A stretch of 64,000 bases of DNA from Okamejei kenojei (taxonomy: Eukaryota). The position numbers are program-made. Below, one piece after another: positions 28,301-34,300 of this stretch (its first letter is position 1; every line of letters starts with the position of its first letter). The DNA is taken from the NCBI GenBank assembly GCA_035221665.1, contig CM069145.1, positions 42,532,001 to 42,596,000 on the forward strand. Direction: 5' to 3'.

Positions 28301-31300
28301 ATCAAAGCAATGGCTAAGAAAACGCACCAACTTCCTTAGAAGCCCAGGAAGTTTGGCATGTCCCCAACAACCCTCATCAACTTCTTCATATGCGCTGTGG
28401 AAAACATTTTATCAGGATGCTTCACAGAATGGTTCGGGAACAGCTCCAACCAAAACAGCAAGAAATTGCAGAGAATTATGGACACAGCCCAGACCATCAC
28501 ACAAACCAACCTCCCTTCCATTGATTCCATCTACACCCCACTGCCTCGTCAAGGCCACCAGCATAATCAAGTGAGTCTCGCCTCACTTTTCTCCCCTCTC
28601 CCATCAGGCAAGAGGTTTGAAAACTCGTTCCTCCAGATGCCTTTAGTTTTTGAATCCTCTACCCTGGGAAAAAGATTATGAGCTTTCACTTTATCCATGC
28701 CCCTCATGATCTTGTACACCTCAATAAGGTCACCCCTCAGCCTCCGACGCTCTAAAAAAATGGTCCCAGCCTATCCAACCTCCCTCTATAACTCAAGCCA
28801 GGGTAACCTGGTGTGAAACTATTTTTGTGATAATTCAAATGTTATGACTATTACTTTTAATTGAAGCTATAGGAAAGATGCCAATAAACTGAAAAAAGTA
28901 CAGGGAAGATTTACGAGGATGTTTGCCAGAACGCCAGGGCCCAAGCTTTAGGGAGATAGGTCATAGGTTTAGGGTTAGGGGGGAAAGATTTTTTCACACA
29001 GGGTATATGGAATCTGTCAGGGGAGGTAGTTGTGGCTGGTGCTATGTCAAGTGTTTTATTGTCATATGTCCCAGACAGCACATTGAAATTCATACTTGCA
29101 GCAGCACAATAGAATATGAATATGTACTTTGTAAACAATATAATAAATGGAAAAAATGTGTGCATATGGATGTGAGCAAAGACAAAACTGATGCCCCAAA
29201 ATCTATGTCGTTTGGAGCTTATGATGTTTAATAGCCTGATGTTTATAGGGAAGAGGTTAACAATATTTAAAAGACACTTGCACGGGTACATGGATGGGAC
29301 AGGCTAGGAGGGATAGGGGCCAAGCGCAGGCAGGTGGGACATCTGGGCCAGATTGGGCAAGTTGGGCCGAAGGGCCTGTGTCTGGGTTAAAGCGACCAAC
29401 GGGCGAGGCCGGTGCGACAGGCTGCGTGGCCCCGCGGCCTCTGCACGATGACTGGAGCGAGCGACGGTCTTTGGATTAAATCACCGGAGCGGCGGAAGGG
29501 GAGCGCCGATCGCTGAGCCGGCCCGGGCGGGTGCGGAAGCGGAGATGGAGGCGGAGACGGCGGCGGCCTCACTCACCGAGCCGGACGTACCCAGCGGACA
29601 GCGGCCCCGCGTGAATTAAACCGCGTCCATTCATAAAGCGGCGGCGGCGGCGGCGGCGGAAACGGCGGGAGCGGGGAGCGGGCGGAATCAGTGCAGCCGG
29701 TGGGGGCGGGGCCGCCAGACAGGGGGCGGGGCCGGAGGACAGGAGGACCCGGGGCAGGGGGCGTGCCGCCAGAGAGGGGGCGGGGCCGGAGGACAGGAGG
29801 ACCCGGGGCAGGGGGCGTGCCGCCAGAGAGGGGGCGGGGCCGGAGGACAGGAGGACCCGGGGCAGGGGGCGTGTCGCCAGAGAGGGGCGGGGCCGGAGGA
29901 CAGGAGGACCCGGGGACAGGGGGCGTGTCGCCAGAGAGGGGCGGGGCCGGAGGACAGGAGGACCCGGGGCGGGGGCGGGGCGGGGCCGGGTCAGGGGGCG
30001 TCCCGCCAGAGAGGGGCGGGGCCAGGGCGCCCGTTGCCGTGGAGACGGGCAGCCCGATTGATGCAAGATGGCGGCGCGGGTCTGGCTGGAGAGTCTGCGG
30101 GAAGCGAAGAAAACGGCGGTGGTGCAGGAGGGTGAGTGGAGGATGAGGAGATGGGTGGTTGAAGCCAGCAAGGAAGGAAGGGAGGGAGAAGAGGAATCGA
30201 GAGAAAAAGGGGATGGATGGAGAGAGAGAGAGGGGGCGGATTGAGATGGAGAACGTGGATGGGTGGATGGAGGAGGGGGTGTTAAGGAGAGGGCGAGCGG
30301 TGTGGAGAGGAGTGATAAAGGTTATTGTCACGTGTACCGCGATACAGTGAAAAGTTTAAAAAAGAATAACGTTTAGTGGGAGATAAGGTCCAGTAAAGTA
30401 TCTGGATGTGTCTAAGTGGAGCATCACTCACTCGGCACTATGATGGTGGTGGACGTGCTGGTCGAGATGGAGATGCTTTTGTAATGCATCTTTGTATGTG
30501 TTGATGTTTTGGAGATCTCTGATGTTGGCTGGTAGGGTATCCCTCGCTGTCTTGAAGAAAAACGAGTTAGAAAATGTAGTGAAGGTATGCAGACACCTTA
30601 AAGTCTTCAGTACTTTATTAAGCATACATTATACATAGCCCTGGCTGTACGTGGTCTGTCACGAACACTAGAGAGAGAGCTAGGGACGTGTGGGTTACAA
30701 TTATACTAACTGGTGGGGGAGTGGTTAGCATGGACATCGTTACTATCAATTAAAGGTGTACACACATATCATCTACATCCTTCCTCTACCAAAACAAACA
30801 GTGAGTGACAGGGCGACCACGTCTCATGCGCTAGGGTGAGTGCAAACAGTAAAGCACAGGGATACAGGATCACACGTTATCGCCGTAACGGACCGGTGGC
30901 CTGACCAGGCGACCAGACCGGGTCCGCACCTCGCCATCACCTCCTTCCCTGACGGGAACAAGCGGGGACGCTGGGGCACGGTGGGGGCTATGGACAGGAG
31001 AACCCCTTGGCGACGAAGGCATCGGGGGGGAGGGGCGGCGAAGAGAAGGGCGAGGAAGCCGGAGAAAGCGGGACCGCAGCCGGGAGGCGTTCCGGAGGAG
31101 AACGAGGGGAGGTCGGCCCCAGAGGAACGGGCAAAGCACAGGGCCGCGACAGCGGCAGCAGGAGGGCATACGGAGCTGCCGGGGGAGGGAGAGGCTCGTT
31201 CACGAGCCGGAGATGCTGGCGGGACCGGCGGTACACCCTTCCGTCGAGGTTGACAAGGTACGAACGAGGGGAACCGGCAGAACCGACGACCACGGCCAGC

Positions 31301-34300
31301 CTGGAATGGCCAGAAGAGGACCACATACAGACGACCTGGCCGGGGAGAAGAGGGCGGAGGACACGGCAGGACCTGTCGTGGGAACGCTTCTGGATACTGT
31401 GTTTTTCGGCAATGTGTTCCCGGACCAAGGCAGGTTTAAAGACGGAGGGGGACAGGGACTGCTGAGACACCGGGACTGTGGGCCTCGTGACTCGGGACAT
31501 GAGTCGCTGAGCCGGGGTGCCCAGGGCATGGTCGCGGGAGATGTTTCGGAGGTTTAGCAGGGCCAGGTAGATGTCGGAGCGGGATAGGCGACAACGCTCC
31601 AACAATCCTTTAGCATTGCGGACCGCGCGCTCGGCCAGTCCATTGCTCTGTGGGTATTCCGGGCTGCTGGTGTAATGACGAAAGTTCCATCGTTCAGCAA
31701 AAGCGCGGAACTCGGCACTGGTGAACTGGCTGCCGTTGTCCGACTGCAGGCTGACGGGGGACCCGAAGGTGGCAAAGTGGCGGCGCAACTTCTTGATGAC
31801 CGCGGAGGAAGAGAGGGAGTGGAGCTGGTCAACTTCAAACCAGCTGGAGTAAGAGTCGACAAGCACCAGGAAGTGCTTTCCGTGCCACTCGAAGATGTCG
31901 GTTGCTAGCGCTGACCATGGCAGGTCAGCAGCTGGCTGCTGCAGGAGCGGCTGCCGCTGTTGCTGTGGAGCGAGGCTGTTACAGGTAGGGCACGCGGAGA
32001 CCCTATCCCGGAAGTAGCGAGGCATGTCAGGCCAGAAAAACTAGCTCTGAGCGACAGAGAGGGTCGTCTCGGCCCCGGGATGGCCACGATGAGCGGTTTC
32101 GAAGTATTGTGCTCGTAGTGCTTCGGGCACCACCACCTTGTGCCCCTTCACAATCACACCATCACGCAGCACCAACTCGTCACGAACCAAGAAGTAAGGC
32201 ACCGCTGCGGCCGGCAGGGAAGAACGGCGGTCTGGCCAACCCTGCTTGATGACCGCGGCCAGCTGCTGTAGTGAAGCGTCTGCTGCCGCGTGCTCGGCCA
32301 GGGATTTCAACTGACCGGAGGGCACGAAGTTCACGCCCAGGACTATCAGATCGGACGTCTCGTACAGATGCTGGGTTGTGGATGAGAGAGGCGCCCGAGA
32401 CAGCGTGTCAGCAACAAACATGTCCTTGCCCTTGCGATAAACCACTGTGAAAGTGAAGCGTTGTAGCTGGAGCATCATGCGCTGGAGCCGGGAGGAGGCC
32501 ATGTGTATCGGCTTGTTGAGGATGGTGACCAGAGGCTGGTGGTCCGTCTCGACAGTGAAGCAGTTGCCCAGGATATAGTCTTTGAATTTGGAGCAGGTAA
32601 AGACAACCGCCAGCAGTTCTTTCTCAATCTGGGCATAGTGTTGTTCAGCGGTCGTCATTGTGCGGGATGCGTAGGACACAGGCAGTTGCACCCCGTCATG
32701 GATCTGCAGGCAGGCGGCCCCGAGGCCAAACTTTGATGCATCACATGTGAGAACGATGGGGCGCTGGAGGTCGAAGTACTTCAGCGTTGGCATGCTGATC
32801 AGCTTAGATTTGAGGGTGTCAAATGCTCGCTGGTGCTGCGGGAACCAGGCCCAGGCAGTGTCCTTTTTCACCAGATCCCGCAGAGGGGCACTCAGTTCGC
32901 TCAGGTCGGGGATGAACTTTCCCAGGTAGTTGACCATGCCCAAGAAGCGCTGCAGGCCAGGCACGTCAGCAGGTGCAGGCATCTCGGATATTGCGGCCGT
33001 CTTCTGCGGGTCGGGCTTCAGCCCCGATGCCGTGAAAACATGCCCCACGTAGGTGACCTCAGGGACCCGGAATCGGCACTTCTTCGGGTTGAGCTTCAGG
33101 TTAACCTCCCGGGCCCCATCGTTCTCACGTGTGATGCATCAAAGTTGAGCACTATGTTACAATCGCTCACCCTGCTGTGGCCCCCGCCGTCAAGGCTTTC
33201 CTGCTGCTTAACCTGGCTGGTACAGAAGCGCTCGAGCGTTCGGAGTCGTTCGTCTATGGGCATGGTGAGAGTATCCAGGACCCCGATTGCCTGCTTGCTA
33301 AATTTACGGCGCTGTGTGACCTTCCCACTAACCACATCTTAGAGCGTTTCAAACTGTTCTCCAGACGCCAGAACCCTGGGGAATCTATTGACAATTTTGT
33401 GGCCGCGCTGCGCCAGCTGGCTCGCCGATGTGACCTGCATGTTCTGACCCCTGATACTTTGACCCGTGACATTTTAGTCTTTGGTCTGCGGGATGATAAG
33501 CTGCGCTCTGAGCTGCTGCGTAAGCCTGATCTGACATTTGATGAGGCGCTGCATGCCTCTTGTTTAGCTGAGGCTGTCTCCTCCGCTGTACCTGACCCTG
33601 TGGTCCACACAGCCAGTCTCGCTGGTCCCCAGTACAATGCTCCCCGGCGACAGAGGGTAAGACCACTGCAGGGCTTCAGACCGCCTCAACGATGTCCAAA
33701 TTGTAACTTTGTCTCGCACCGTTTTAATGTGTGCCCGGCGTTGGGGAAAACCTGTAATTTCTGCAACAGGCCCAACCACTTCTCGGCTGCATGCTGTTCC
33801 CGTGGGATCCCACTTCTGACACCATGTAGTGAAGGTACGCAGACACCTTAAAGTCTTCAGTACTTTATTAAGCATACATTATACATAGCCCTGGCTGTAC
33901 GTGGTTTGTCACGAACACTAGAGAGAGAGCTAGGGGCATGTGGGTTACAATTATACTAACTGGTGGGGGAGTGGTTAGCATGGACATCGTTACTGTCAAT
34001 TAAAGGTGTACATACATATCATCTACAGAAAGTGCAAATGAAACGCCGTGCGGAATGAAATAATTTCCATGTTGGTAGCTTTTGGTTGACAAACCTAAGG
34101 GTGCTTGGGTTAACTGGATGTGATCCTCCACCTTTAAATCAATAGTGGTATTCTTGATCTTGTGGAATGTTGTCAGTCTGATGAACTTGCGATGAGTAAT
34201 AGGTGGGTAAAGTTTAAGGTCCTTTATCATGCTGGAGACTGAGCCCTGCCGCGTTGTTGTTAGATGTGAACATTGCTGCTCTGTTTTACACTACCTGGAT

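What the first reader, a model, noticed from the sequence alone, without database searches (positions are those of the whole stretch)
30575..34027. Gypsy element with an inverted gag: a fossil of multiple aberrant reverse-transcriptase template switches
Seen: LTRs, PBS, PPT and pol all point to the minus strand, but gag (33147-33806) is on plus. Read in element sense the order is: 5' LTR; PBS; a junction at the palindrome GGGATCCC (33804-33811); antisense gag; a 34-bp antisense duplicate of the RNase H start (33113-33146 = reverse complement of 32729-32762, 1 mismatch); sense pol from the RT thumb onward; PPT; 3' LTR. The leader, gag start, protease and catalytic RT are absent, yet both LTRs are intact (6/203 differences) with a near-perfect 5-bp TSD, so it probably integrated in this form. 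Inference: plus-strand strong-stop DNA mis-primed on sense template twice before finding minus-strand DNA. An LTR-driven transcript would carry antisense gag and an RNase H hairpin, a built-in source of silencing RNA against the parent family.
Basis: partly seen in the sequence, partly recalled or inferred. Interest (0 to 1): 0.72.

Follow-up and report, generated by a model that had tools for sequence, protein, structure and literature searches.

The report
Rearranged dead Gypsy copy, gag inverted
A 3.5-kb defective Gypsy-type retrotransposon copy carries its gag fragment backwards between an intact primer site and a truncated pol, most likely a scar of copying errors made while the element was reverse transcribed.

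Summary
Two 203-nt LTRs (6 differences, all transitions), an 18-nt primer-binding site, a polypurine tract and a pol remnant (end of RT, RNase H, integrase) all lie on the minus strand. A 220-codon gag fragment lies on the plus strand. Two details need refining. The inverted duplicate of the RNase H start is 43 nt, and its outer 9-17 nt also read as RT. The junction palindrome is 12 nt, not 8.

New here: the primer site matches all 18 3'-terminal bases of a tRNA-Leu(CAA) printed in a paper. The 6 gag-side bases next to it match the tRNA bases just before its T-loop.

Gag sits N-terminal to pol in 97 of 98 relatives that hold both, so this order is aberrant. Protease, the RT core, the leader and about 28 gag codons are missing.

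Template switching during reverse transcription, before integration, is the best reading (about 0.5). One junction falls at the natural end of plus-strand strong-stop DNA. Post-integration replicative rearrangement cannot be excluded (about 0.3).

Copy number in the host genome, a full-length parent and read support could not be checked. The silencing-RNA idea is untested speculation. Interest is modest.

The parts
30570..30574 (.). left target-site duplication (GAAAA)
   Evidence: 4 of 5 identical to the right copy
30575..30777 (-). 3' LTR in element sense, 203 nt, TG..CA
   Evidence: 6 transitions against the other LTR; holds AATAAA in element sense (read)
30778..30790 (-). polypurine tract abutting the 3' LTR
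   Evidence: read directly
30873..33120 (-). pol remnant: last part of RT after the catalytic motif, RNase H and integrase. Broken gene, given as one part. Its 5' side lacks protease and the RT core (one large loss). Against P0001 it shows three alignment pieces in three frames (at least 2 frameshifts) and 2 in-frame stops.
   Evidence: Pfam hits; bounds and counts; start of RT-like reading
32729..32771 (-). source copy of the duplicated stretch (start of RNase H), inside pol
33104..33146 (+). inverted duplicate of the RNase H start. About 26-34 nt are unambiguous. The outer 9-17 nt also read as RT and so are imperfect microhomology.
   Evidence: 43 nt, 93%; E 9e-12
33147..33806 (+). gag fragment of 220 codons with no stop or frameshift. 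It lacks about the first 28 residues and the tail of family gag proteins. It ends just after two CCHC zinc knuckles.
33802..33813 (.). perfect 12-nt palindrome spanning the gag/PBS junction
33807..33824 (-). primer-binding site, 18 of 18 complementary to the 3' end of tRNA-Leu(CAA)
33825..34027 (-). 5' LTR in element sense
34028..34032 (.). right target-site duplication (GAAAG)

Best explanation
This is a dead, non-autonomous copy of a Ty3/Gypsy LTR retrotransposon. Its internal region was scrambled by template switches of the element's own reverse transcriptase, in this copy's cDNA or in a progenitor's. It then integrated in that form.

Inferred path:
1. Plus-strand strong-stop DNA (LTR plus the 18-nt copy of the tRNA-Leu primer, perhaps with a few more tRNA bases) failed to land on its normal acceptor.
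2. It primed instead on a sense-strand template at a short complementary site near the end of gag, and copied about 660 nt of gag backwards.
3. It hopped to the start of RNase H on a sense template for about 30 nt.
4. It returned to minus-strand DNA late in RT, at a stretch of imperfect homology, and finished normally.

Shown: the parts, their orientation, the junction sequences and the tRNA match. Inferred: which polymerase did this, the direction of synthesis, the order of switches and the timing.

Today the copy does nothing that can be shown. Its pol remnant carries stops and frameshifts, and gag has no start codon.
For: - One junction lies at base 18 of the tRNA complement. Plus-strand synthesis normally ends after 18 nt of the tRNA (PMC8599865; PMC3187697).
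- The 6 bases on the gag side of that junction equal the tRNA bases that precede the T-loop. Together they form a 12-nt palindrome, which is rare in the window (17 of 63,999 centres).
- A plus strand that reads past the stop becomes non-complementary to its acceptor (PMC8599865 discussion). That gives a reason for mispriming.
- Both strand-changing junctions carry inverted microhomology. The same-strand junction carries 2 nt at most.
- All donor stretches come from one element lineage. P0002 is the closest relative in both gag (46%) and pol (72%) among 98 proteins holding both.
- The LTRs, PBS, PPT and target duplication are intact.
- The duplicate differs from its source at 1 of 34 bases, about the same rate as the LTR pair at 6 of 203. 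This is only weak support for equal age.
- Intramolecular switches of retroviral RT give deletions, deletions with insertions and duplications (PMC3187697 passage).
Against: - No parent or second copy was seen, so no junction can be compared with its unrearranged donors.
- Microhomology, short-range donors and a short inverted templated insert fit host replicative switching or end joining equally well.
- The tRNA read-through version needs an ad hoc skip of 5 T-loop bases.
- The gag-side 6 bases also read as gag codons that relatives share (S-R-G in P0002). The tRNA identity could therefore be chance, or could reflect an unknown leader sequence.
- Three non-homologous switches in one cDNA should be rare. 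Non-homologous recombination is at least 1000-fold rarer than homologous (PMC3187697 passage).
- The target duplication is imperfect (4 of 5).
Confidence: 0.5

Rival explanations
1. A normal full-length copy integrated. It was rearranged later in the chromosome by host replication or repair: fork stalling and template switching, microhomology-mediated break-induced replication, or end joining with a templated insert. That event inverted a gag segment, deleted both of its flanks and added a 26-43-nt inverted copy of nearby sequence.
For: - All donor stretches lie within about 3 kb of each other in a normal element.
- Junctions carry 0-6 nt of perfect, or up to 17 nt of imperfect, microhomology.
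- The LTRs and target duplication would be untouched either way.
- Multi-step template switching with inverted segments is reported for chromosomal rearrangements (PMC7507428, title and abstract start in the listing). The usual sizes of templated inserts are recalled, not checked.
Against: - The break beside the PBS falls within 0-6 nt of the end of the 18-nt tRNA complement. A chromosomal event has no reason to choose that point.
- The extra 6-nt identity to the tRNA T-stem would be chance.
- One mismatch in the 34-nt duplicate argues weakly against a very recent event.
Confidence: 0.3
2. The arrangement is that of a propagating non-autonomous family. This copy inherited it from an already rearranged master, mobilised in trans by autonomous relatives.
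For: The LTRs, PBS and PPT needed in cis are intact. Non-autonomous and rearranged LTR derivatives are common in at least one plant genome (PMC13570524 passages).
Against: There is no second copy in the 64-kb window. No protein above 88% identity to its pol, or above 67% to its gag, was found in the protein collections. The leader and the start of gag are missing; that these usually hold the packaging signal is recalled knowledge.
Confidence: 0.1
3. Assembly artefact: chimeric or inverted reads created the inverted gag segment.
For: Inverted chimeras joined at short overlaps are a known artefact of some library methods (recalled). No read data were available here.
Against: Three separate junctions inside one element would be needed, one of them exactly at the PBS end. 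The flanks and LTRs are coherent, and the duplicate has diverged from its source by one base.
Confidence: 0.07

Closest known systems
Ty3/Gypsy (Metaviridae) gag-pol elements of fishes, annotated 'K02A2.6-like' or 'Gypsy retrotransposon integrase-like'. Closest named: LOC129707187 of Leucoraja erinacea (P0002).
   Same: Gag with two CCHC knuckles; RT, RNase H and integrase in that order; 71-72% identity in pol and 46% in gag to P0002.
   Different: In 97 of 98 relatives holding both, gag lies N-terminal to pol in one protein. Here gag is on the other strand, and protease, the RT core, the leader and the gag start are absent.
Retroviral 'deletions with insertions' and non-homologous template-switch products made in a single replication cycle
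   Same: Loss of internal sequence together with a short insert copied from elsewhere in the same genome, joined at short homologies. RT switching is the cause (PMC3187697 passages).
   Different: Those were recovered from vectors in culture. I could not read the primary papers (Pathak and Temin 1990, Parthasarathi et al. 1995; seen as references only, not held). Whether they include a 660-nt inverted segment starting at the PBS is therefore unchecked.
Template-switch complexes of plant LTR retrotransposons (Sabot and Schulman 2007)
   Same: [quoted passage not shown]
   Different: Those are fusions of two elements sharing LTRs, all in one orientation. The words 'inverted' and 'antisense' do not occur in that text.
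5'-inverted LINE-1 copies (twin priming)
   Same: An inverted 5' segment with an internal loss, made during reverse transcription. 5'-inverted copies are a recognised structural class (PMC2912911, abstract start in the listing). The twin-priming mechanism itself is recalled.
   Different: LINE-1 is copied at the chromosomal target without LTRs, a tRNA primer or strong-stop intermediates.
Mu killer of maize, and nested antisense EVD insertions in Arabidopsis
   Same: A rearranged transposon copy holding antisense or inverted-repeat sequence of its own family, proposed or shown to trigger small-RNA silencing (PMC3440606, abstract start in the listing; PMC11624286 passages).
   Different: Those hairpins are kilobases long, or involve whole LTRs in plants with RNA-directed DNA methylation. 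Here the inverted repeat is 43 nt, the host is an animal, and no RNA data exist.

Membership tests
Ty3/Gypsy LTR retrotransposon | Direct LTRs with TG..CA ends, flanked by a short target-site duplication | tested here: met
   203-nt LTRs, 97% identical; 5-nt flanks 4 of 5 identical
Ty3/Gypsy LTR retrotransposon | tRNA-complementary primer-binding site next to the 5' LTR and a polypurine tract next to the 3' LTR | tested here: met
   18 of 18 to tRNA-Leu-CAA-2-1 as printed in PMC10359600; 13-nt purine-rich tract
Ty3/Gypsy LTR retrotransposon | Pol domain order RT, RNase H, integrase | tested here: met
   PF17919/PF17917 lie upstream of PF00665 on the minus strand. Relatives carry the same order.
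Ty3/Gypsy LTR retrotransposon | Gag upstream of pol on the same strand | tested here: not met
   Gag is on the plus strand and pol on the minus strand. Relatives have gag N-terminal to pol in 97 of 98 cases.
Autonomous (coding-competent) element | Protease and the catalytic RT domain present, with open reading frames | tested here: not met
   No match to P0002 residues 325-694. No RVT_1 or protease Pfam hit in the 4 ORFs scanned. The pol remnant has at least 2 frameshifts and 2 stops against P0001.
Retroelement gag (capsid plus nucleocapsid) | Homology to gag of gag-pol polyproteins and CCHC zinc knuckles | tested here: met
   9217 library proteins at E up to 0.001, many of them long polyproteins with the match near the N-terminus. 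A profile of 6 sequences hits nucleocapsid and Lin-28 knuckles (3e-6) and a Gag polyprotein chain (2e-5). Pfam Retrotrans_gag is only E 0.24, below its cut-off.
Product of aberrant plus-strand transfer during reverse transcription | Junction at the 3' end of plus-strand strong-stop DNA (end of the 18-nt tRNA copy) | tested here: met
   Gag-like reading runs to 33806 and the tRNA complement starts at 33807. Microhomology leaves 0-6 nt of uncertainty.
Product of aberrant plus-strand transfer during reverse transcription | The rearrangement predates integration | not testable with these tools
   This needs other copies, the orthologous site or the parent. No eukaryotic genome collection was on hand.
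Hairpin or antisense trigger locus for transposon silencing (Mu killer-like) | A transcript with double-stranded or antisense sequence, and small RNAs derived from it | not testable with these tools
   Only a predicted stem between the 43-nt arms (-194.8 kcal/mol over 436 nt, z -7.1, 0 of 100 shuffles as stable). No expression data.

The most novel reading that the evidence does not exclude
The copy is a natural fossil of a plus-strand strong-stop DNA that read past the tRNA stop into the T-stem, could not land on its acceptor, and mis-primed on gag. Its LTR-driven transcript, holding 660 nt of antisense gag and a 43-bp stem, feeds small-RNA silencing of the parent family. That would make it an animal, LTR-element counterpart of Mu killer, created by the element's own replication error.
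Probability: 0.07. Interest if true: 0.7.

Novelty: new variant of a known kind. Interest (0 to 1): 0.33.

Why it matters
If the junctions were made by reverse transcriptase, this copy preserves in a genome the kind of multi-switch error so far described mostly from retroviral vectors in culture. It would also tie that error to failure of the second strand transfer.

It shows that an LTR element can integrate with an inverted internal segment. That bears on how annotation pipelines and age estimates treat 'intact-LTR' copies.

The silencing idea would matter only with RNA evidence. As it stands, this is one dead copy of a common element type, of modest interest.

Tried and rejected
Searches that gave nothing useful:
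- Other copies in the window: none. Only the LTR pair and the 43-nt inverted pair match.
- A tRNA gene or any Rfam family in the window, to name the primer: 0 and 0. The primer was named from a paper instead.
- A same-family full-length relative in the protein collections: best pol matches were 88% over 48% of the query (P0282), 81% (P0272) and 80% (P0001). Best gag matches were 64-67%. None is close enough to read junction donors.
- Pfam on gag: nothing at E up to 0.01 and only a sub-threshold hit at E 0.24.
- Primary papers PMC54464 and PMC1170264 are not held.
- Four literature searches listed no paper whose title or abstract start describes an LTR element with an inverted gag made by aberrant plus-strand transfer. 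I read passages of only five of the listed papers, so this is weak evidence of absence.

Explanations considered and rejected on logic:
- Nested insertion of a second element in the opposite orientation. The plus-strand piece has no LTR of its own and is itself non-collinear, with the RNase H start joined to gag.
- Autointegration. It uses up the LTR ends, yet here both ends are terminal and flanked by a target duplication.
- A domesticated gag gene. The fragment has no start codon and is truncated at both ends.

One search failed because the stretch held a stop codon. I later used a stop-free stretch.
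Full report
**What is there**

The window has no N. I do not take it for human. The nearest named relatives of its element are from a skate and from teleost fishes. The window also holds a LINE-like stretch and a GC-rich minisatellite.

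Positions 30575-30777 and 33825-34027 are direct repeats of 203 nt with 6 differences, all transitions. Each begins TG and ends CA, with 5-nt inverted termini. The flanking 5-mers are GAAAA and GAAAG. Read on the minus strand, the right LTR is followed at once by an 18-nt primer-binding site (33824 down to 33807). The left LTR is preceded by a purine-rich 13-mer (30790 down to 30778).

**The primer**

The window has no tRNA gene and no Rfam match. I therefore searched the paper library with a 15-nt stretch of the site. A table in PMC10359600 (one passage seen) prints a tRNA-Leu-CAA-2-1 whose last 18 bases equal window 33807-33824. The tRNA-Leu-CAG printed beside it differs at one of those 18. 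I did not check which species that tRNA set comes from. PMC12025293 (one passage) lists the same 3' end as a tRNA fragment.

**Pol**

The minus strand encodes RT_RNaseH_2 (8.7e-32), RT_RNaseH (2.6e-30) and the integrase core (4.5e-14). Against the skate gag-pol protein P0002 the match covers its residues 695-1032. This starts about 15 residues after that protein's catalytic motif.

The closest relative over this point is P0282, at 88% identity. It aligns from the window's D-G-A-R-E-V-N onward. Upstream of that, the window's reading does not resemble RT. In 33 relatives that matched my pattern, out of the first 60 ids examined, three columns show this:
- Where the window has N, all 33 have L.
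- Where the window has E, 28 have V.
- Where the window has G, 32 have R.

So RT-like reading begins within 33112-33120. Downstream, comparison with P0001 gives three alignment pieces in three frames, which means at least two frameshifts, and two in-frame stops. The outer bounds are 30873-32982.

**Gag**

The plus strand from 33147 to 33806 is an open 220-codon reading. It matches gag residues 87-324 of P0002 (46%, E 1e-60) and stand-alone gag proteins at 61-67%. The exhaustive search found 9217 proteins at E up to 0.001, 1651 at E up to 1e-10 and 9 at E up to 1e-30.

A profile of six of these sequences hits CCHC-knuckle proteins and retroviral Gag chains in the PDB. Pfam gives only a sub-threshold Retrotrans_gag hit. 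Family gag proteins have about 28 more residues at the N-terminus and a further tail.

Of 135 held proteins of 800 residues or more, 98 match both the window's gag and its pol. In 97 of those 98, gag is N-terminal to pol. P0002 is the closest of them in both parts, which fits a single lineage for both fragments. Residues 325-694 of P0002 (protease and RT core) match nothing in the window.

**The junctions, in element sense**

Junction 1 is PBS to antisense gag.
- Gag-like reading runs to 33806. Relatives have S-R-G, S-R-R or S-L-G at that spot.
- The tRNA complement starts at 33807, so nothing of the leader is left.
- The junction sits in a perfect 12-nt palindrome at 33802-33813. Only 17 of 63,999 centres in the window have arms this long.
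- The 6 gag-side bases equal the tRNA bases just before its T-loop. The junction therefore looks like the tRNA T-arm with five loop bases missing.

Junction 2 is gag to the inverted duplicate, at 33146/33147. It has at most about 2 nt of possible overlap. This is judged from relatives' residues only.

Junction 3 is the inverted duplicate to RT.
- The repeat is 43 nt at 93% identity, and its two arms lie 332 nt apart. It is the only internal match besides the LTRs (E 9e-12).
- Two of its three mismatches lie in the outer 9 nt, which also read as RT.
- The switch therefore happened inside a stretch of imperfect homology of roughly 9-17 nt.
That mismatch is a CpG-type transition.

**How it most likely arose**

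According to passages of PMC8599865 and PMC3187697, plus-strand synthesis copies the LTR and then 18 nt of the tRNA primer, and stops. This gives plus-strand strong-stop DNA, which must anneal to the PBS copy on the minus strand. If the stop fails, the product becomes non-complementary to its acceptor (PMC8599865 discussion; its Supplementary Figure S1 may show more but was not seen). Junction 1 is exactly the 3' end of that intermediate. No other natural terminus of the replication cycle lies there.

I therefore favour a path in four steps:
1. A strong-stop DNA primed on a sense gag template, perhaps after picking up T-stem bases.
2. It copied gag backwards.
3. It hopped to the RNase H start.
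4. It returned to the minus strand late in RT.

A duplex whose two strands differ internally would be sorted out at the first host replication; that step is inference. The opposite direction of synthesis fits the microhomology at junction 3 at least as well. In that version a minus strand snaps back on itself at the RNase H start. I cannot decide between the two directions.

RT template switching is known to give deletions, deletions with insertions and duplications (PMC3187697) and complex integrated LTR elements (PMC1950507). General strand-transfer steps for LTR elements are reviewed in PMC6894440 (passages).

**Rivals**

Replicative template switching, or end joining with a templated insert, in the integrated copy would leave the same microhomologies, the same short-range donors and the same untouched LTRs. 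What it does not explain is the break at the PBS end and the tRNA-like 6-mer.

That clue would vanish if the family's leader happened to begin with those bases. I could not check this, because no eukaryotic genome collection was on hand and the protein collections hold no close relative.

The duplicate's divergence (1 of 34) equals that of the LTRs (6 of 203). By my arithmetic, this favours equal age over a uniformly later date by a factor of only about 1.4.

A propagating non-autonomous family and an assembly artefact remain possible at low probability. Copy number in the host genome and read support both stayed unchecked.

**The silencing idea**

A transcript from the 5' LTR would contain antisense gag. 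The two 43-nt arms pair in the predicted fold (-194.8 kcal/mol over 436 nt, z -7.1, 0 of 100 shuffles as stable).

Rearranged transposon copies do trigger silencing in plants, or are proposed to:
- Mu killer (PMC3440606, abstract start in the listing; Slotkin et al. 2005 seen as a reference only).
- A nested antisense EVD copy was proposed but not tested as a trigger (PMC11624286 passages).

Nothing here shows that this LTR is active or that small RNAs arise from the copy.

**Verdict**

I rate it a new variant of a known kind (a defective LTR element rearranged by template switching), of modest interest.

Noticed in passing
window 29702-29977 (related repeats to about 30021): GC-rich minisatellite about 550 nt from the element's left end: 54-nt unit, 5.1 copies, 96% matches. 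Long ORFs on both strands run through it. The one ORF scanned had no Pfam match.
   Followed up: partly
window 15711-18546: LINE-like stretch on the plus strand. One ORF has an endonuclease/exonuclease/phosphatase hit (8.2e-6) and another has RVT_1 (1.8e-22).
   Followed up: partly
window 26164-26709, minus strand: ORF with a weak BRCT-domain hit (E 1.5e-4, 22.4 bits against a cut-off of 21.3). Possibly an exon of a host gene.
   Followed up: no
window 10253-10339 and 49447-49595: An (AC)n microsatellite of 44 copies and a purine-rich GA/G array.
   Followed up: no
window 30575-30777 against 33825-34027, and 32729-32762 against 33113-33146: All 6 LTR differences, and the single difference in the 34-nt duplicate, are transitions. 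Several lie at CpG sites, as expected from decay of methylated DNA.
   Followed up: partly
window 30873-31200, minus strand: The tail of pol after the integrase core is proline- and serine-rich. It ends in a short motif shared with P0001, but in a different frame from the integrase ORF.
   Followed up: partly
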